A DNA stretch of 64,000 bases. Source: Escherichia coli (lineage in GTDB: Bacteria; Pseudomonadota; Gammaproteobacteria; Enterobacterales; Enterobacteriaceae). This document shows positions 18,242-50,293 of this stretch, piece after piece (within the stretch, counting starts at the first letter, position 1; every line of letters starts with the position of its first letter). Position numbers and translations under genes: made by a program. Location: the NCBI RefSeq assembly GCF_024298765.1, contig NZ_CP101210.1; one strand, written 5' to 3'. The notes beneath the pieces were generated by a model. It did not search any database and had not been told where the DNA came from. It saw nothing but the letters and a program-made list of their open reading frames with translations.

Positions 18242-19456
18242 TTACCAGTTCCACAATGTGCCATCTTCCAGTCGTGCGACGGGGAGATACGCCGGGTCAT
18301 ACGGATATTTCGCCGCCAGTTTCTCATCGAAAGAAATACCCAGCCCCGGTTCATCGCCTGGGTGCATATAACCTTCATCGAAGCGCCAGCTATGCGGGAA
18401 GACTTCAAGCATTTGTTCGGAATAGCCCATGTACTCCTGAACGCCAAAGTTTGGCACCCAGAGGTCAAAATGCAGCGCCGCCGCATGGCAAACAGGCGAT
18501 AAATCTGAAGGGCCATGCGAACCGGTACGTACCTGATAAAGCGATGCAAAATCGGCAATCCGTCGCATCCCGGTAATGCCGCCTGCATGGGTAATCGTCG
18601 TGCGAATATAGTCAATCAGCTGCTCTTCGATTAACTGCTTGCAGTCCCAGATACTGTTAAACACTTCACCGACCGCAATCGGCGTCACGGTATGCTGACG
18701 AATCAGACGAAAACATTCCTGATTCTCGGCAGGCGTCGGATCTTCCATCCAGAACAGGCGGTAATCTTCAATGCTCTTCCCAAAGCGCGCCGCTTCGATG
18801 GGGGTCAGGCGATGGTGCATGTCATGCAACAGATGTTCGTTAAAACCGAACTTATTACGCACCGCTTCAAATAACTTCGGCGTAAAATCGAGATACTTTT
18901 CTGAAGACCACAACTGCTCTTCTGGCCACAGGCCTTTGGTTGCTGGTTCATACGCCAGTCCTTTGCCCTTCGCCAGACCATAGGTGGTTTGCATACCCGG
19001 TACACCACACTGCACACGAATCGCCTTAAAGCCCATCTGCTGGTGCTTTGCATAGTCTTCAAGGACTTCATCAATCGTACGCCCGGTGGTGTGGCAATAA
19101 ACCATAACGCCTTCACGAGAAGCACCACCAAGCAGTTGATACAATGGCATATTTGCCGCTTTTGCTTTGATATCCCACAACGCCATATCAATGGCAGAAA
19201 TGGCTGACATCGTGACGGGGCCACGTCGCCAGTAAGCACCTTTATAAAAGAATTGCCAGATATCTTCGATACGGCTGGCATCGCGGCCAATTAGTTGTGG
19301 ACAAAGATGATCTTTCAGATAAGAAGCGACCGACAATTCGCGACCATTTAACGTGGCATCTCCTAATCCACAAAGTCCGCTTGCAGTGGTTATTTTAAGC
19401 GTAACGAAATTACGCCCTGGGCAAGTAACAAAAACATCTGCAGCAATAATTTTCAT
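18242..19456 (-). CDS. Enolase-superfamily dehydratase, ManD/RspA-like (about 404 aa); accessory relative to K-12
   Basis: ORF 18242..19516; start set at ATG 19454-19456 ([24 protein letters not shown]...) with an AGGAG RBS about 7 nt upstream. TIM-barrel region resembles mandelate racemase / D-mannonate dehydratase family proteins such as E. coli RspA. Confidence 0.8.
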
Positions 19457-19860
19457 TATTGCAATCTCCTGTGTTGTAAATAGACGTTTCAAACTTAATT
19501 TTGCGCCTACTACCATACAAGAGAGAAAGAGCGATTATTCAACCATGATCACATTAAAAATAAAAATTTCTACCGAGGAGAAAAAACACCCTCAAAAACC
19601 ACCTGAATAATTAGCTATCATCGTTAAAACAACACGTTAAATAATCACATAACAAACTCCATTAATCATTAAAAATGAACACAGCAATAGAAATGAATTA
19701 TATTCAATTAATTAAAGTATGTATTGGCTGATGTATTGAAAATATAATTTTTATGGGGAGAGTGAAGGTAAAGAAGACGCAAGAATAAAAAGGAATGTGA
19801 CAAATAATGGTTCTGGTTGGGCGTTAAATTTAAGGTCACCAGAATACTGACAAATTTCTG

Positions 19861-19941
19861 CCTGATGCGGCGTAAACGCCTTATCCGCCTACGAAGTGTC
19901 GCACTTTGTAGGCGTGGTAAGCTCCCCATTTTCAGGGGAGC
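19861..19941. repeat. REP-like palindromic element plus a perfect hairpin just downstream of argH
   Basis: GCCTGATGCGGCGTAAACGCCTTATCCGCCTAC is REP-like; GCTCCCC-ATTTTCA-GGGGAGC at 19921-19941 is a perfect 7-bp inverted repeat. Confidence 0.6.
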
Positions 19942-19953
19942 AATATAAACAAA

Positions 19954-21327
19954 CTACTCTAACCGAGCTTGCGCAAAAGCAATCGCCTGCGCCACCTGCT
20001 GCGGTGAGACGCCGCCTTTTGCAGCACGCTTGTCGAGGCACGATTGCAGCGACAGAATCGGATAGACATCTTCGCCAATCACCTGGCTGAATTTCTGCAA
20101 CTCACTGAGCGGCAGATCTTCCAACGCTTTGCCCTGACGAATGGCTTCCACCACAGCTTCACCCACAATATGGTGCGCCTCGCGGAACGGTACGCCTTTC
20201 GCCACCAGATAATCCGCCAGTTCAGTAGCGTTGGCGTAACCCTGCTGCGCCGCTTCCTGGCAACGCGGACGTTTCACCTGAATGCCGTCCAGCACCAGCG
20301 CCGCCATATGCAGGCAGTCCAGCCAGGTATCGAGCGCGTCGAACAGACCTTCTTTGTCTTCCTGCATATCTTTGTTGTAAGCCAGCGGCAAACCTTTCAG
20401 CGTCATCATCATGCCGGTTAACGCCCCCTGCACCCGACCGCATTTACCGCGAATCAGCTCCAGCGCATCCGGGTTTTTCTTCTGCGGCATTAATGATGAA
20501 CCGGAAGTCACACGGTCAGAAAGCTCCACAAACCCCGCTTCGCCGGTGTTAAAGAAAATCAGATCTTCAGCAAAACGCGACAGATGCACCATGCCGATAG
20601 CGGCAGCAGAAAGCAGTTCCAACACATGGTCACGGTCAGAAACGCTGTCGAGACTGTTACGGGTCGCCGAAGCAAAGCCCAGCCAGCCTGCTAACTGTTC
20701 ACGGTCGATTTCATAGGCCGTTCCTGCCAGTGCGCCACAGCCTAGCGGGCTGACATCCAGACGCTTAAGCGCGTCCTGCAAACGGCTTTCATCACGCGCC
20801 AGCATCTCAACGTAGGCCAGGCACCAGTGAGCGAACGTCACCGGCTGGGCGCGTTGCAGGTGAGTGTAACCCGGCATCACCGCGTCCTGATTGTTCTGCG
20901 CGGTCTCGACCAGAGCGGATTGTAACTGCCGGTTAGCCGTCAGCAACTCGCTAACGGTATCTTTGCACCACAGTTTCAGGTCAGTTGCTACCTGATCATT
21001 ACGGCTACGCCCGGTATGCAGTTTTTTGCCTAACTGACCCACTTTGTCGATCAGTTTGCCTTCCACCCAGCTATGGATATCTTCGGCGTCGCTTTCAAGG
21101 ATTTGTTGTGGCCTGGCGCGAACATCTTCCAGCAGCACGTTCAGCGCCTCTTCCAGTTGCGCCTGCTCTTCTGCGGTTAACACGCCGACCGTTACCAGGG
21201 CTTTGGACCAGGCCACAGAGCCAACAATATCCTGCTCCGCCAGACGGTAATCAAAGCGCAGTGAGTCGTTGAATTGTTTGAACCGTTGATCTGCTGCCTG
21301 GGTAAAACGCCCGCCCCAAAGTGCCAT
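19954..21327 (-). CDS. argH: Argininosuccinate lyase (457 aa)
   Basis: Full-length [37 protein letters not shown]...; fumarate-lyase signature [12 protein letters not shown]. Confidence 0.95.
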
Positions 21328-41878: not shown

Positions 41879-44113
<2,235 letters not shown>

Positions 44114-44387: not shown

Positions 44388-45281
<894 letters not shown>

Positions 45282-45659: not shown

Positions 45660-47213
45660 TTATTTGATATCCTTCACGCGCATACCGTTGAGCTGTTCAT
45701 CCGTAATGGTGTTGCCCGCTTTGAAGTAATCAACCACCGCGTGATAAACGTAATAACCGCCCGTTGTGTTACGCGCTTTCCCTTCGGTAAAGGCGGTAAA
45801 ACCATCTCCACCATCAGCAAGGAAACTCTGAGTAGCAATGTGATAAACCGTCGCATCTTCAATGGGTTTGCCATTCAGAGCCAGTGTGATTACCCGCTGA
45901 CCAACCGGCTTGCTGCTGTCGTACTTCATTTCCAGGCCTTTCGATACCTGTAAAACGCCATTGCTTAAACTTGCGCCGTGTTCCATCAGACTGCGTAATT
46001 GTTTACCCGTGAGTTCCATCGTCACCAGTTCGTTGGGGAACGGGAACGTACTGATGACGCCGCCCATCGTGATCGCCCCTGCGGGGATCTCATTGCGAAT
46101 GCCGCCAGAGTTGGTTAACGCCAATTGGGTGTTTTTACCCGCCGCTACCAGTAAAGCGTCAGCCGCCAGGTTCCCGAGGGAAGCCGATTCACCATAGGCA
46201 CGTTTTAATTCAACCGGCGATTGCGCCACCGTTTGTTGCACCACTTCATCAAGCTTTTTATTCCAGCCGTCGATCACCTGTTTCGTTTGTGGATCGGGCT
46301 TCCACTCGTCAGCGTAAATGGTTTTAAGCTCGAAGTTTTTCACCGTAAAATTATGCGGCTTCTCTTTGTAGTCGAGAACCAGTTTGCCCACATCAATCCC
46401 GCCGCTGTCAGTGGAGAGGATGAGCGTATTGCCGACTTTAATCGGTTCCGGCGTACCCACATGTGCATGTCCGGTGATCAAAATATCCAGCCCTTTCACC
46501 TGACTTGCCGTCTGAATATCTTTATCCAGCGCGCGACGCACATCTGTGCCTCCCATACTGGACTGGCGGGCCGGAACACCTTCATGGATCAGGGCGACGG
46601 TCAAATCAACCTTGCCTTTAAGTTCATCGATATAACGTTGTAGCCATTTAATTTCATCACGCGCCTCAATACCCACTCGCGTGGCAGCAGATACTGTGTC
46701 ATTAAAGGCAAATACACCGTGCAAACCTATAACGCCTATTTTCACACCGTCTTTTTCGATGATGGTATAGGGCTTATCCCAGAATGATTTACTGCTGTTC
46801 TGATAAAAAACATTGCCCTGCACAATCGGGAATTTTGCCTGACTCAACTGTAATAATGTGTTGTCCCAGCCGTGGTCAAATTCATGGTTGCCTATCGTGA
46901 CGGCATCAAACGGCATAGTATTCATAATATCGATAATAGCCTTACCTTTGGTCAGGCTGCTGATATATGGCCCGGTAAAATAGTCGCCCGCATCAAAAAA
47001 CCATGTCGCTTTATTTTTTGCTTTTTCTTGCTTAACCAGCGTAGTGATATTTGCCCAGCCGCCAATATCCCGTTTACCGTCAGCGATCCACGGCACTTTA
47101 TAAGGTTCTACATGCGCATGGAGGTCGTTGGTATAAATAATAGTGACATCTTTAGCGCAAGCCCAGAACGGCAGTGTTAATGCGATACCCGCAGCAAGTA
47201 TTTTAATTTTCAT
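45660..47213 (-). CDS. Secreted bifunctional metallophosphatase / 5'-nucleotidase, UshA/YfkN-like (paralog 1, about 517 aa); accessory
   Basis: ORF 45660..47219 starts on TTG; first ATG is at 47211-47213. Signal peptide [20 protein letters not shown]|KD. Calcineurin-like motifs [27 protein letters not shown], plus a C-terminal 5'-nucleotidase substrate-binding domain. Confidence 0.85.
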
Positions 47214-47345
47214 AAACAATCCCTTTCAGTGAGATAAAGGATTGCTACATTACGTTCTGAAAGACTTATTTATGTGAGAGTAATCACATCTGCAGGGGAT
47301 AGTTGCCGGACAAAATCAACGACCTTGTGAAATCGTTGGTGATAT

Positions 47346-48470
47346 ATGTCGACTCTGTTTACGATTAATGCCTGTAAAACGTTCGGTTGCCGAAATTTGG
47401 GATTGGCCTCATCGGAAGATTACAGTTGGCCAGACTATAAACTGGGTTATCCGGCACTGCACTGTCGGGCATGTGGCAGTTACCCGCCGTTGTTTGACGA
47501 GCAACAATTTCGTGACTGGTTGTCAGTTCACTTATCTACGTGGGCCTCGGAGAAGGGTCATTTCTGCCCGGTATGTTATGGCACAGACATGATTTGTTAT
47601 GGTCACAATCCACAGGGTTCGCAACGCATTCAATGCCGTAACTGCAAAAAAGTCTGGACGCCTAAACAGTATCAGAAAGAAATTACGCATCCCCAGGCCA
47701 TTGAAACCGTTCAACTGTTCATACCCTTTCAAGGGGCCAGCGCAGTACAAAAACTGTATGTTTTAGTCAGTCTTGACGCCACTCGTGGCAACATTCTTCA
47801 TCTCTCCACGAATTATACGCAACATCAGACAGGAGACAGTCTGCGGTACAGTTACAAGGGCAACACAGAACCAACTATGCACCATCGCGATATCGTGCAG
47901 AAGGTAGATATGCGTGAAGCGCAATTCTTGCGCCGGAGCCAGTTCGATGAAATTCAGTATGGCAGTGCTGTACTCAAGCGCAACGGTAAGGGAGCCATAC
48001 TACGCCCGGTTATCACGGCACACGGGCATTTCAGAATACTGAAAATCCGCTATCCAGATGTCAAAACGCATATTATTTCACACGAATGTTTTCTAAGAGG
48101 CGCAATTATTACAGCCTGGGCAGATCAGTTCCGCCAACAACAAGGTGAACTTTGGTTCGTAGAAGAAGAAATCAGTGACAGTAACGCTGATACGCCCTGG
48201 CATTTTAAGGGAACGACATACCATGGTTGGTGGCAAAATCAGTGGCAGCGCTGGGAGCAGGGGAATAACTGCAAGATGGTCTGCCTACTCACGGGAGCCA
48301 GCTTAGAAAGGGGCGCAAATGTTTCTCTGGCAACCAGTCGTTGTTTTATCACATGGCTGACAGACCAACACGACTTTACCCAAAGCGCGTTATTATCCGC
48401 AGGTCGCGTAACGCAAATGCTGACCTCACTGGCGTTAAAATACAATGAATCGCTCACTCCATCTTGTTAG
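47346..48470 (+). CDS. Cysteine-rich hypothetical protein with two N-terminal zinc ribbons (374 aa), the second InsA/IS1-like; function unknown
   Basis: CxxxxC...CxxC (C10, C15, C40, C43) and CPVC-x19-QRIQCRNCKKVW (C74, C77, C97, C100). The second fits the IS1 InsA pattern CPxC...QRYxCxxCRKxW. No recognisable domain in the C-terminal 260 aa. Divergent from paralog 1. Confidence 0.6.
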   Translation: MSTLFTINACKTFGCRNLGLASSEDYSWPDYKLGYPALHCRACGSYPPLFDEQQFRDWLSVHLSTWASEKGHFCPVCYGTDMICYGHNPQGSQRIQCRNCKKVWTPKQYQKEITHPQAIETVQLFIPFQGASAVQKLYVLVSLDATRGNILHLSTNYTQHQTGDSLRYSYKGNTEPTMHHRDIVQKVDMREAQFLRRSQFDEIQYGSAVLKRNGKGAILRPVITAHGHFRILKIRYPDVKTHIISHECFLRGAIITAWADQFRQQQGELWFVEEEISDSNADTPWHFKGTTYHGWWQNQWQRWEQGNNCKMVCLLTGASLERGANVSLATSRCFITWLTDQHDFTQSALLSAGRVTQMLTSLALKYNESLTPSC

Positions 48471-48699
48471 TCAATACACTCGACAAACGACCATAAATTA
48501 AGAGAGATCACTACCTTTCATTTAATTAAATATATAAATGTATGACCGTGAAATATAATCATGGTCAATGTTTAATTAATAACATTATTTGTTACTAAGA
48601 TCACATAATACTTTTCTGAACTATGCTTACATAAAATAAGACACGATGTGCCTTTTATTTAAATAATTCAACAAATGTAACACACCCTATCCAGGAGGG

Positions 48700-50253
48700 A
48701 TGATGAAAACTGTATTTACAACATTATCAGTCATATTCGGCGTGATATTTTCTCACAGTGTTCTAGCTCAGGACGTTACTATTTATTATACGAATGACAT
48801 TCACGCACATGTCAATCCGGCAAAAATCCTCGCTGTTGATAAGAACAGACTTATAGGTGGTATGGCTAATATTGCAGGCATCGTTAATGAAGCGAAGAAA
48901 AAAAGCAAAGATGTGTTTTTCTTTGATGCAGGCGACTATTTTACCGGGCCGTATATCAGCACCCTGACCAAAGGTGAAGCTATTATTGATATCATGAACA
49001 CTATGCCCTTTGATGCGGTGTCTGTTGGTAATCACGAGTTCGATCACGGTGTGCCCAATATGGTGTCTCAGTTATCAAAAGCAAAATTTCCCATTCTGCT
49101 GGGAAATATCTACTACACCGATACGAATAAACCAGTTTGGGATCATCCGTGGACCATTATCGAAAAAGATGGTTTAAAGATTGGTGTGATTGGATTGCAT
49201 GGCGCATTCGCTTTCTATGATACAGTCGCGGCAAAAGCACGTGAAGGCGTAGAAGCCAGAGACGAAATTAAATATTTAAATAAAGCACTTGCAGAATTAA
49301 AAGGCAAAGTCGACATTACCGTTTTGCTAATTCACGAAGGTGTCCCGGCGCGTCAATCAAGCTTTGGTAGTAAAGATGTGGAGCGGCTACTACAGGCAGA
49401 TATTGAGACAGCTAAAAAAGTGAATGGTGTTGATGTCTTAATTACCGGTCACGCACATGTCGGAACACCGCAACCAATAAAAGTTAATAACACATTAATT
49501 GTATCTACCGATGCATACGGCACCAACATCGGAAAACTTGTGCTTGATTACAATCCGAAAACGAAGAAAATTGATAGTTATAATGGTGAGTTAATCACCA
49601 TCTTTGCAGATCAATTTAAACCTGACACCATCGTTCAAAATACTATTGATAAATGGAGTGCAAAGCTTAACAAAATAACACAGGAAGTTGTCGGCCATTC
49701 TCCCGTAGTTTTAACACGTGAGTATGGTAGTTCCTCTTCTACCGGCAACCTTATTCTTGATGCAATGATGGAAAAAACACCTGATGCCGTTGCCGGATTT
49801 CAAAATAGCGGTGGGATTCGAGCTGATTTTCCTAAAGGCGATATCACACTGGGAGATGTTATTAGCACATTCCCCTTTAATAATGACCTCATCGAGATGG
49901 ATTTGACGGGCCGCGATCTCAAATCATTGATGACGCATGCAACCAATCTAACTAACGGTGTGTTACAAGTTTCTAAAAGTGTTGCGGTTGTCTATGACAG
50001 CAAAAAACCCCTCAACCAACGGTTAATCTCTTTCACCATTAACGGCAAACCTGTGGAAGATAATCAAACATATCGTATTGCCACGCACTCCTTTTGTGCC
50101 AGTGGTGGTGACGGTTTTGAAGCATTTTTGAATGGAAAAAATGTGAAGACGATACCGGGAACAACCTCGGCGGAATCTATCATCGATTATTTCAAAAATC
50201 ATAAACCTGTCACCCCAGACTTAACTAAACGAGTCATGGACGTCGCCAAATAA
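48700..50253 (+). CDS. Secreted metallophosphatase / 5'-nucleotidase, UshA-like (paralog 2, 517 aa); accessory
   Basis: AGGAGG RBS at 48693-48698; signal peptide MMKTVFTTLSVIFGVIFSHSVLA|QD; same motif set ([27 protein letters not shown]). The most divergent of the three paralogs, with visibly AT-richer codon usage. Confidence 0.85.
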   Translation: MMKTVFTTLSVIFGVIFSHSVLAQDVTIYYTNDIHAHVNPAKILAVDKNRLIGGMANIAGIVNEAKKKSKDVFFFDAGDYFTGPYISTLTKGEAIIDIMNTMPFDAVSVGNHEFDHGVPNMVSQLSKAKFPILLGNIYYTDTNKPVWDHPWTIIEKDGLKIGVIGLHGAFAFYDTVAAKAREGVEARDEIKYLNKALAELKGKVDITVLLIHEGVPARQSSFGSKDVERLLQADIETAKKVNGVDVLITGHAHVGTPQPIKVNNTLIVSTDAYGTNIGKLVLDYNPKTKKIDSYNGELITIFADQFKPDTIVQNTIDKWSAKLNKITQEVVGHSPVVLTREYGSSSSTGNLILDAMMEKTPDAVAGFQNSGGIRADFPKGDITLGDVISTFPFNNDLIEMDLTGRDLKSLMTHATNLTNGVLQVSKSVAVVYDSKKPLNQRLISFTINGKPVEDNQTYRIATHSFCASGGDGFEAFLNGKNVKTIPGTTSAESIIDYFKNHKPVTPDLTKRVMDVAK

Positions 50254-50293
50254 AATCTCATTTATCAGTCAATTTATTTAACAAGGAATGCGA

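What the first reader, a model, noticed from the sequence alone, without database searches (positions are those of the whole stretch)
48471..48699. Strongly AT-rich 229-bp region with palindromes upstream of the paralog 2 / paralog 3 / Tsx-like gene string
This spacer is by eye roughly three-quarters A+T, far above the surrounding coding DNA. It contains an imperfect palindrome TGACCGTG-N9-CATGGTCA (48543-48567) and ends in a strong AGGAGG RBS. Such AT-rich tracts are typical H-NS-bound, xenogeneically silenced promoters. The palindrome is a candidate operator, possibly for the adjacent zinc-ribbon protein or for CRP/CytR, although the match to the CRP consensus is poor.
Basis: partly seen in the sequence, partly recalled or inferred. 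Interest (0 to 1): 0.4.

Follow-up and report, generated by a model that had tools for sequence, protein, structure and literature searches.

The report
AT-rich spacer before nucleotidase/Tsx operon
This is an ordinary AT-rich gap between genes in an accessory E. coli islet: it most likely holds the end-of-gene hairpin of the upstream transposase-like gene and the catabolite-controlled promoter of a nucleotide-scavenging operon, and nothing in it looks like a new kind of element.

Summary
Window 48471-48699 is 71.6% A+T, in the top 0.3% of 229-bp windows. The palindrome TGACCGTG-N9-CATGGTCA is at 48543-48567 and AGGAGG at 48693-48698.

The spacer lies in the metL-metF islet (GR31 of ExPEC), which is present in 658 of 5426 complete E. 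coli genomes. It lies within a ~5.5-kb mosaic segment (~47600-53067) of unknown donor. That segment carries two 5'-nucleotidase paralogs and a Tsx-like channel.

A promoter role is plausible but weak by sequence, and H-NS binding could not be tested. The palindrome matches no CRP, CytR or Fur consensus and recurs nowhere else. It sits 72 nt after the stop of the zinc-ribbon gene, where six of ten orthologues in other genomic contexts carry a shared terminator hairpin, so it is most likely that gene's 3' hairpin. Its loop also holds a perfect TATAAT, which keeps an operator reading alive.

A better CRP candidate lies 25 bp downstream (TGTTA-N6-TCACA, 48590-48605). It is a perfect consensus in one metagenome allele, and it parallels a perfect, genus-conserved CRP site in the divergent promoter region 1.3 kb upstream.

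The spacer evolves at about the neutral rate and contains a degenerate ~138-bp tandem duplication. Interest is low.

The parts
48471..48702 (+). AT-rich intergenic spacer between the zinc-ribbon gene (znr) stop and the RefSeq start of 5'-nucleotidase paralog 2 (nt2)
   Evidence: 71.6% A+T. No ORF of at least 20 aa. No Rfam match at E up to 10. Single copy per genome in 658 E. coli genomes and absent from plasmids.
48543..48567 (+). Core palindrome/hairpin TGACCGTGA-AATATAA-TCATGGTCA. The extended stem runs 48535-48574.
   Evidence: Class B alleles read TGACTGAA..CACAGTCA: one C-G to T-A compensatory pair, G.T to G-C, two inner pairs lost, loop invariant. It lies 72 nt after the znr stop, like the hairpins after znr orthologues.
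48554..48559 (+). Perfect -10-like hexamer TATAAT in the hairpin loop
   Evidence: Best sigma70-like score in the spacer (-35 TATATA, spacer 17), but the spacer's best score ranks only 55th of 456 comparable windows. Invariant in all 12 alleles.
48590..48605 (+). CRP-like site TGTTA-CTAAGA-TCACA (9 of 10 core positions)
   Evidence: One of only 3 sites with up to 1 mismatch in 64 kb. 1.3% of shuffles of the spacer contain one. TCACA is invariant in the alleles that cover the site; left-half position 4 is T, C or G, and allele L052 has the perfect TGTGACTAAGATCACA. It lies in the 51-nt run with no A/B difference.
48638..48654 (+). Second small hairpin AAGACAC-GAT-GTG(C/T)CTT followed by TTTTATTTAAAT, 46 nt before the start codon
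   Evidence: Perfect 7-bp stem in Rb50-type alleles (dG -6.5). A.C mismatch in the window allele. Not kept in class B.
48638..48667 (+). Only promoter-like site reported by the consensus scan (AAGACA-18-AATAAT, 9/12)
   Evidence: Two sites were found in 1.9 kb against 4.6 expected, so it is not evidence by itself.
48693..48698 (+). Shine-Dalgarno AGGAGG of nt2
   Evidence: Conserved in all alleles.
48492..48615 (+). Copy A of a degenerate ~138-bp tandem duplication. Copy B is 48630-48752 and includes the SD and the first codons of nt2.
   Evidence: Direct repeats D1-D3 in register at 137-139 bp. Local alignment score 56; 1 of 1000 dinucleotide shuffles reaches it.
48703..50253 (+). nt2, periplasmic 5'-nucleotidase-family paralog (signal peptide ...VLA/QD)
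   Evidence: Pfam Metallophos + 5_nucleotid_C. RefSeq CDS. E. coli relatives are 96-100% identical and the next relatives at most 75%.
50294..51913 (+). nt3, second 5'-nucleotidase-family paralog
51990..52850 (+). Tsx-like nucleoside channel, last gene of the string. G+C-rich hairpins follow at 52948-52967 and 53032-53056, before the metL stop at 53068.
   Evidence: Pfam Channel_Tsx 1.5e-69. NCBIfam PRK15106. Hairpins.
47346..48470 (+). znr, zinc-ribbon 'cytoplasmic protein': two N-terminal Cys4 ribbons plus an RNase H-like (DDE transposase/integrase) fold
47273..47288 (.). Perfect CRP core TGTGAGAGTAATCACA in the divergent nt1-znr control region
   Evidence: 0.08% of shuffles contain a perfect core. 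Nearly all of the 25 aligned loci from ten or more genera keep it (a few have one change in the left half).
47600..53067 (.). Mosaic 'long-form' segment: 3' three-quarters of znr + spacer + nt2-nt3-tsx-like + terminators
   Evidence: Identity to short-form E. coli falls from ~92% to ~75% at about 47600. Junctions TACAA|TGAATCG at about 48449 and CACTACAA|CAACTG at 53067 relative to short-form loci.

Best explanation
The spacer is a composite, ordinary intergenic control region of an accessory islet.

Its 5' half carries the 3' stem-loop of the upstream transposase-like zinc-ribbon gene.

Its 3' half carries the promoter and leader of the nt2-nt3-tsx-like operon. The elements are a CRP-like site at 48590-48605, weak sigma70 elements, a small hairpin with a U-run, and a strong SD. 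Expression is inferred to be cAMP-CRP dependent. That would couple the operon to the nt1/znr pair, which is served by a perfect CRP site 1.3 kb upstream, in the way K-12 nucleoside-catabolism genes are coupled.

The extreme A+T content reflects foreign or mosaic origin and near-neutral drift, including a decayed 138-bp duplication of the promoter/start region. It makes H-NS occupancy likely, but H-NS binding is not shown.

Shown here: composition, coordinates, gene content, mosaic origin, allele variation, motif statistics, and the position of the hairpin relative to orthologues. Inferred: promoter activity, CRP dependence, termination, and H-NS binding.
For: Operon context: two co-oriented 5'-nucleotidase genes and a Tsx-like gene with 34- and 76-bp gaps. 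No terminator-like site was found on the + strand between 50200 and the hairpins after 52850.

CRP: only 3 sites with up to 1 mismatch in 64 kb, and two of them lie in the islet's two control regions. Chance is 1.3% for the spacer site and 0.08% for the perfect site. The upstream site is kept in nearly all of the 25 aligned loci. TCACA is invariant in the alleles covering the site, and one allele is a perfect consensus. In genomes where nt2/tsx/nt3 homologues follow nt1 on the same strand, no separate site is needed.

Hairpin as znr 3' element: it was flagged terminator-like on the + strand. Its G.U pairs favour the + strand RNA (-14.6 against -9.7 kcal/mol). Among ten znr orthologues outside metF-metL, six share one AAGGGTTCATG..CATGAACCCTT terminator hairpin, five of them 26-75 nt after the stop and one at 191 nt; another has a different strong hairpin at 62 nt. 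The window hairpin is at 72 nt.

Foreign origin. The islet is present in 12% of complete E. coli genomes and is listed as GR31 in PMC12928451.

Near-neutral evolution: 9.1% divergence between allele classes A and B, against 4.8-10% at third codon positions of the flanking genes.
Against: No convincing sigma70 promoter. The consensus scan finds one 9/12 site, and my PWM scan ranks the spacer's best site 55th of 456 windows.

The CRP-like site is not at a canonical -41.5 or -61.5 distance from any of the -10 candidates I could name. Its left half varies (T/C/G at position 4).

The hairpin tail (AAUGUUUAAUU) is a poor U-tract. The class B allele folds weakly (-7.4 kcal/mol, z -1.4), so termination may be inefficient or lost.

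The hairpin shares no sequence with the orthologous terminators, so the argument rests on position only.

There are no expression, TSS, CRP or H-NS data for this locus.
Confidence: 0.5

Rival explanations
1. First reader's model. The spacer is an H-NS-silenced xenogeneic promoter. The palindrome is a repressor operator, possibly for the adjacent zinc-ribbon protein, that occludes a -10 element.
For: The arms bracket a perfect, allele-invariant TATAAT at 48554-48559. A palindrome with 4 or more G/C pairs is found in only 2.45% of shuffles. One arm pair changed in a compensatory way, keeping symmetry. The zinc-ribbon protein has a transposase-type fold with zinc-ribbon domains of the kind that bind DNA ends in IS1/IS1595 elements (the analogy to InsA is from my own knowledge). 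The composition fits H-NS targets.
Against: The motif occurs once in the window. It is absent from the conserved nt1-znr control region and from other loci carrying znr. Five of 21 A/B differences fall in the 16 arm bases, and two inner pairs are lost, which is unlike a constrained operator. I estimate by hand (not computed) that the single compensatory pair has roughly a 15-20% chance of arising anyway. The -35 is poor. TATAAT is expected about 0.5 times per strand in DNA of this composition. znr exists in many genomes without this spacer. No H-NS data were available.
Confidence: 0.15
2. There is no separate promoter. nt2-nt3-tsx-like are transcribed by read-through from the CRP-dependent znr promoter. 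The spacer is a long intercistronic region whose hairpins attenuate or process the transcript.
For: znr and nt2 are co-oriented. Both hairpins have weak terminator features. The znr promoter region has a conserved perfect CRP site. Promoter-like matches in the spacer are no better than background. The 3' part of znr and the operon arrived as one segment.
Against: A 232-bp gap with its own CRP-like site and a strong SD is atypical for an intra-operon spacer. znr orthologues elsewhere end with a proper terminator. In short-form loci znr is a stand-alone gene converging on metL.
Confidence: 0.2
3. The spacer is largely non-functional: drifting AT-rich DNA left by recombination and an old duplication. 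Under this reading the palindrome, TATAAT and the CRP-like site are chance features.
For: Divergence equals the synonymous-like rate. The longest conserved run is not significant (p = 0.09). The whole spacer RNA is not unusually structured (z -1.7). Palindromes of this size are common in such composition (87% of shuffles). The degenerate duplication shows decay.
Against: The downstream operon needs some promoter or read-through path. The CRP-like site (1.3%) and the G/C-containing palindrome (2.45%) are each individually unlikely. The SD is conserved.
Confidence: 0.15

Closest known systems
CRP/CytR-controlled promoters of E. coli K-12 nucleoside genes (tsx P2, deoP2, udp, cdd, nupG); established knowledge, not tested here
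   Same: The spacer lies upstream of a Tsx-family channel and nucleotide/nucleoside-processing enzymes. It has a TGTGA-N6-TCACA-type site, and a second, perfect CRP site serves the neighbouring divergent genes.
   Different: No CytR (TGCAA/TTGCA) motif. No tandem CRP pair. The position relative to a start site is unknown. The spacer has only one matching place per E. coli genome, so it is not a copy of the K-12 tsx region. Binding has not been tested.
H-NS-bound AT-rich promoters of horizontally acquired genes (xenogeneic silencing)
   Same: 72% A+T over about 230 bp, and at least 68% over about 400 bp, inside an accessory, mosaic segment that is 58% A+T.
   Different: Occupancy and derepression are unknown. 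The patch is short. The nucleation motif is not enriched.
Intrinsic-terminator hairpins after znr orthologues (AAGGGTTCATG-N6-CATGAACCCTT + TTTTAA)
   Same: A 9-bp stem and 7-nt loop, 72 nt after the stop; the shared hairpin lies 26-75 nt after the stop in five of six loci. An A/T-rich tail containing TTTAATT.
   Different: No sequence similarity in the stem. Weaker U-tract. Degraded in class B alleles.
IS1 InsA / IS1595-type transposases and their end-binding, self-repressing zinc-ribbon domains (analogy, from my own knowledge)
   Same: Znr has sub-threshold IS1/IS1595 zinc-domain hits and a DDE-type RNase H fold.
   Different: Znr is syntenic across genera and not flanked by recognisable inverted repeats. 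In my manual reading of the model, the second catalytic Asp appears to be replaced (..ITAHGHF..). No link between Znr and the palindrome was found.

Membership tests
CRP (cAMP receptor protein) binding site | 16-bp core TGTGA-N6-TCACA | tested here: met
48590-48605 matches 9 of 10 core positions, and allele L052 matches 10 of 10. 1.3% of shuffles contain such a site.
CRP (cAMP receptor protein) binding site | Centre at about -41.5, -61.5 or -71.5 from a mapped start site | tested here: inconclusive
   No start site is known. The -10 candidates TATGCT (48622) and TAAAAT (48632) would put the centre near -37 or -46 (and reading).
CRP (cAMP receptor protein) binding site | CRP-cAMP binding and crp-dependent expression | not testable with these tools
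   Needs EMSA/footprinting and a crp mutant.
CytR operator | TGCAA/TTGCA (GTTGCATT) repeats next to or between CRP sites | tested here: not met
   No occurrence in 48471-48702.
H-NS-silenced xenogeneic promoter | A+T well above the genome average, in acquired DNA | tested here: met
   71.6% against 48.8%. Mosaic segment present in 12% of genomes.
H-NS-silenced xenogeneic promoter | H-NS occupancy (ChIP) and derepression in hns mutants | not testable with these tools
   CFT073 ChIP data exist (PMC9765446), but the stored table is cut before metL/metF.
Palindromic repressor operator | Inverted repeat overlapping core promoter elements | tested here: inconclusive
   The arms flank TATAAT, but whether that hexamer is a promoter is unknown.
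Palindromic repressor operator | Motif recurs at co-regulated promoters, or is conserved with its regulator | tested here: not met
   Unique in the window and absent from the nt1-znr region and other znr loci. The arms are the most variable part of the spacer.
Rho-independent terminator | G+C-containing stem-loop just downstream of a gene | tested here: met
   9 pairs, 4 of them G-C, loop of 7, 72 nt after the znr stop. dG -11 to -14.6 kcal/mol.
Rho-independent terminator | U-tract immediately after the stem | tested here: inconclusive
   The tail AAUGUUUAAUU passes the tool's permissive rule, but it has only three consecutive U, starting 4 nt after the stem.
Rho-independent terminator | Structure kept across alleles | tested here: inconclusive
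   Class B keeps a perfect 6-bp stem through one compensatory pair but loses two pairs (-7.4 kcal/mol, z -1.4).
Known RNA families (riboswitch, leader, sRNA) | Match to an Rfam covariance model | tested here: not met
   No match at E up to 10 within the spacer; the scan covered 47000-49200 on both strands.

The most novel reading that the evidence does not exclude
Znr, a catalytically decayed IS1/IS1595-like transposase kept next to a periplasmic nucleotidase gene across Enterobacteriaceae, might have been domesticated as a sequence-specific DNA-binding regulator. The TATAAT-bracketing palindrome would then be its operator on the acquired nt2-nt3-tsx-like operon. That would make this a transposase-derived repressor governing extracellular nucleotide scavenging in ExPEC.
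Probability: 0.06. Interest if true: 0.55.

Novelty: new member of a known kind. Interest (0 to 1): 0.2.

Why it matters
The islet (three UshA-like periplasmic nucleotidases plus a Tsx-like channel) is typical of B2/F-type ExPEC, APEC and AIEC strains. Its function and regulation are unstudied. Knowing that it is probably wired to cAMP-CRP, and perhaps H-NS, would say when these strains scavenge extracellular nucleotides. The spacer itself adds no new principle. Its value is as a concrete, testable promoter map for an uncharacterised accessory operon.

Tried and rejected
1. Rfam scan of 47000-49200: nothing within the spacer.
2. Small ORFs of at least 20 aa in the spacer: none.
3. Repeat-family or mobile-element reading: one copy per genome in 658 E. 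coli genomes, and no plasmid carries the spacer.
4. Fur box (13/19): 26% of shuffles do as well. CytR half-sites: none.
5. H-NS nucleation motif TCGATAAATT: non-discriminating.
6. Paralogy between the nt1 and nt2 promoter regions: the alignment is not significant, 151 of 1000 shuffles. The shared TTTC(A/T)GAAC next to both CRP sites is therefore only an anecdote.
7. Homology between the spacer and the nt1-nt2 spacers of genomes with the alternative gene order: not significant; the best case is 13 of 300 shuffles.
8. Co-evolution of Znr with the palindrome: rejected. The class B Znr N-terminal differences come from a recombination patch resembling another Escherichia lineage.
9. Phylogenetic footprinting beyond E. 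coli: impossible. nt2 has no relative between 76% and 95% identity. The nearest Znr relative (Pseudocitrobacter, 82%) is a short-form locus without the spacer. A metagenome scan gave only two class B alleles.
10. Literature: the locus is listed only as GR31. Guessed locus-tag searches were useless. The H-NS ChIP table is truncated before the locus.

Full report
**Where the window is.** The window is an E. coli chromosome. The order is yijE, katG (41879-44098, -), metF (44388-45278, -), then an islet, then metL (53068-55500, -). The islet contains:
- a 5'-nucleotidase-family gene nt1 (45660-47213, -);
- a divergent 374-aa zinc-ribbon 'cytoplasmic protein' gene znr (47346-48470, +);
- the AT-rich spacer;
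- two further 5'-nucleotidase paralogs, nt2 (48703-50253) and nt3 (50294-51913);
- a Tsx-family channel gene (51990-52850).

The same arrangement at the same site occurs in 658 of 5426 complete E. coli genomes, always once and always on the chromosome. Examples are APEC O2-211, UM146, ABU 83972, LF82 and IAI39. A 2026 comparative paper lists it as 'GR31 metL..metF' and only speculates about nucleoside processing. Nothing is said there about regulation.

**Checking the observation.**
- 48471-48699 is 71.6% A+T against 48.8% for the window. Only 0.29% of 229-bp windows are as rich.
- The palindrome is at the stated coordinates. It extends to a 40-nt stem-loop, 48535-48574, with dG -14.6 kcal/mol and z -4.3 as + strand RNA.
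- Palindromes of that size are the rule in DNA of this composition: 87% of shuffles contain one. One with four or more G/C pairs is seen in only 2.45% of shuffles.
- AGGAGG is at 48693-48698. RefSeq starts nt2 at the second ATG (48703), so the spacer is 232 bp.

**Origin of the spacer.** I found Znr homologues and fetched 37 loci from one genome per species.
- The conserved unit is the divergent pair nt1/znr. It sits between metF and metL in Citrobacter, Klebsiella, Kosakonia, Phytobacter, Pseudocitrobacter, Salmonella arizonae and many E. coli. In these 'short form' loci the znr 3' end abuts or overlaps the metL 3' end.
- The window is a 'long form'. Relative to short-form loci, about 4.6 kb is inserted between TACAA|TGAATCG (about 48449) and CACTACAA|CAACTG (53067, the metL stop).
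- Identity to short-form E. coli falls from about 92% to about 75% at about 47600 inside znr. The foreign segment is therefore about 47600-53067, and the spacer lies inside it.
- nt2 has E. coli relatives at 96-100% identity and then nothing above 75%, so the donor is unsampled.
- In other genomes (L011, L012, L013, L034) nt2, tsx or nt3 homologues (not all three in every locus) lie downstream of nt1 on the other strand. The module has been reshuffled, and here nt2-nt3-tsx has been uncoupled from the nt1 promoter.

**Internal anatomy.**
- The spacer holds a degenerate tandem duplication of about 138 bp. Copy A is 48492-48615. Copy B is 48630-48752, which includes the SD and the first nt2 codons. 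Three short direct repeats lie in register at 137-139 bp. The local alignment score is reached by 1 of 1000 dinucleotide shuffles.
- There is no ORF of 20 aa or more and no Rfam match.
- The whole spacer is not unusually structured as RNA (z -1.7).

**Allele comparison.** Twelve E. coli alleles fall into two classes, about 9% apart.
- Divergence across the spacer is 21/232 = 9.1%. That is the same as third-codon-position divergence of nt2, nt3 and tsx (4.8-10%), so overall the spacer drifts nearly neutrally.
- The longest run without a class A/B difference is 48564-48614. It is not significant (p = 0.09).
- Five of the 21 differences fall in the 16 arm bases of the palindrome. Class A reads TGACCGTG..CATGGTCA and class B reads TGACTGAA..CACAGTCA. 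One pair changed C-G to T-A, the G.T became G-C, and two inner pairs were lost. The loop AAATATAAT is invariant.
- The class B hairpin is weak (-7.4 kcal/mol, z -1.4).
- By a rough hand estimate, one compensatory pair among this many changes has a 15-20% chance, so it is suggestive only.
- The strong divergence of the Znr N-terminus in class B is a recombination patch resembling another Escherichia lineage. It is not co-evolution with the palindrome.

**What the palindrome is.**
- It does not fit CRP. There is no CytR half-site anywhere in the spacer. A Fur-box match of 13/19 is matched by 26% of shuffles.
- The pattern TGACYR-N11-15-YRGTCA occurs once in the 64-kb window. It is absent from the nt1-znr control region and from the regulatory regions of the other loci. 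This argues against a regulon-type operator.
- Two observations pull in different directions.
  1. The loop contains a perfect TATAAT (48554-48559). This is the best sigma70-like element in the spacer, although its -35 is poor and the spacer's best score ranks only 55th of 456 windows. That keeps an operator-over-the-promoter reading possible.
  2. I examined the DNA downstream of ten znr orthologues that do not abut metL. Six of them (L010, L011, L013, L029, L030, L034) carry one shared terminator-type hairpin, AAGGGTTCATG-N6-CATGAACCCTT followed by TTTTAA. In five it lies 26-75 nt after the stop; in L010 it lies at 191 nt. L033 has a different strong hairpin at 62 nt.
- The window hairpin sits 72 nt after the znr stop. 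It has a 9-bp stem, a 7-nt loop and an A/T tail, was flagged terminator-like on the + strand, and has G.U pairs that favour the + strand RNA (-14.6 against -9.7 kcal/mol).
- I therefore rank 'znr 3' hairpin / weak terminator' above 'operator'. The caveats are that its U-tract is poor and that the argument rests on position, not sequence homology.

**A better CRP candidate.**
- TGTGA-N6-TCACA with up to one mismatch occurs three times in 64 kb.
- One is a perfect site at 47273-47288, midway between nt1 and znr. Nearly all of the 25 aligned loci from ten or more genera keep it; a few have one change in the left half. Only 0.08% of shuffles of that region contain a perfect core.
- Another is TGTTACTAAGATCACA at 48590-48605, in the AT-rich spacer, 25 bp after the palindrome. 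1.3% of shuffles contain such a site.
- Its right half is invariant in the alleles that cover it. Position 4 of the left half is T, C or G. In a metagenome allele (L052) the site is the perfect consensus TGTGACTAAGATCACA.
- From established knowledge, K-12 tsx, deo, udp, cdd and nupG are all cAMP-CRP activated. A CRP-dependent promoter in front of the uncoupled nt2-nt3-tsx string would restore co-regulation with nt1.
- I could not place the site at a canonical distance from a convincing -10. This step is inference.

**H-NS.** The composition and the acquired context fit known H-NS targets, but I found no direct evidence. The published nucleation motif is uninformative here. The CFT073 H-NS/StpA ChIP table (PMC9765446) is held only up to a point before metL/metF.

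**The zinc-ribbon protein.**
- AlphaFold2 on a 50-sequence alignment gave pLDDT 93.5.
- Pfam and NCBIfam give sub-threshold hits to InsA and IS1/IS1595 zinc-binding domains.
- The protein is syntenic across genera. By my manual reading of the model against the usual DDE layout, it seems to lack the second catalytic Asp (..ITAHGHF..).
- It therefore looks like a domesticated transposase. That makes DNA binding plausible, but nothing links it to the palindrome.

**Verdict.** This is an ordinary AT-rich intergenic control region of an accessory operon: a 3' hairpin of the upstream gene, a probable CRP-dependent promoter and a strong SD, in drifting mosaic DNA. The promoter and H-NS idea is reasonable but unproven. 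The palindrome-as-CRP/CytR/Znr-operator idea is not supported. Interest is low (0.2), and the novelty class is a new member of a known kind.

Noticed in passing
[not shown]
   Followed up: partly
window 47273-47288: A perfect CRP core, TGTGAGAGTAATCACA, lies midway between the divergent nt1 and znr genes. Nearly all of the 25 aligned loci from ten or more genera keep it. A conserved CAAAAT about 30 bp downstream fits a class II promoter for znr.
   Followed up: partly
window 47250-47263 and 47310-47342: Two further blocks of the nt1-znr region are conserved across genera. One is TTACGTTCTGAAAG. The other is CAAAATCAACGACCTTnnGAAATCGTTGGTG, which contains the inverted repeat CAACGA/TCGTTG directly before the znr start codon. 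It may be a translational or autoregulatory element.
   Followed up: no
window ~47400-47650 and ~47600-53067; L002, L004, L007: The locus is a recombination mosaic. Class B (IAI39-type) alleles carry a 77-84%-identity patch in the znr 5' part that resembles Escherichia sp. MOD1-EC7003. Long-form strains differ from short-form E. coli by about 25% from about 47600 onward, while nt1 is 98% identical.
   Followed up: partly
window 48445-48449 and 53063-53067: The extra 4.6 kb of the long form is bounded by the same 5 bp, TACAA. On the left this encodes the conserved Znr ..YN. On the right it is the complement of the metL ..L-stop. It could be a target-site-like duplication or microhomology.
   Followed up: no
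L010, L011, L013, L029, L030, L034 (downstream of znr); L011, L013 (nt1-nt2 spacer): One palindromic element, AAGGGTTCATG-N6/7-CATGAACCCTT, recurs both after znr and after nt1. In L011 and L013 it therefore brackets the nt1-znr pair in genomes where the module is not at metF-metL. It may be a shared terminator or a relic of mobile-element ends.
   Followed up: no
L002 10691-11536 (IAI39): RefSeq annotates the Tsx-like gene of IAI39 as a pseudogene missing its C-terminus, although my tblastn aligned residues 1-286 at 98% identity.
   Followed up: no
window 19436-19879: This is the only patch in the window more AT-rich than the finding (74% A+T). It lies between two minus-strand ORFs (18242-19516 and 19954-21327).
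   Followed up: no
window 51914-51989: The nt3-tsx-like gap is also about 70% A+T, and the window holding the nt3 3' end and the gap (50200-53100) has weak promoter-like matches on both strands. The channel gene may have its own promoter.
   Followed up: no
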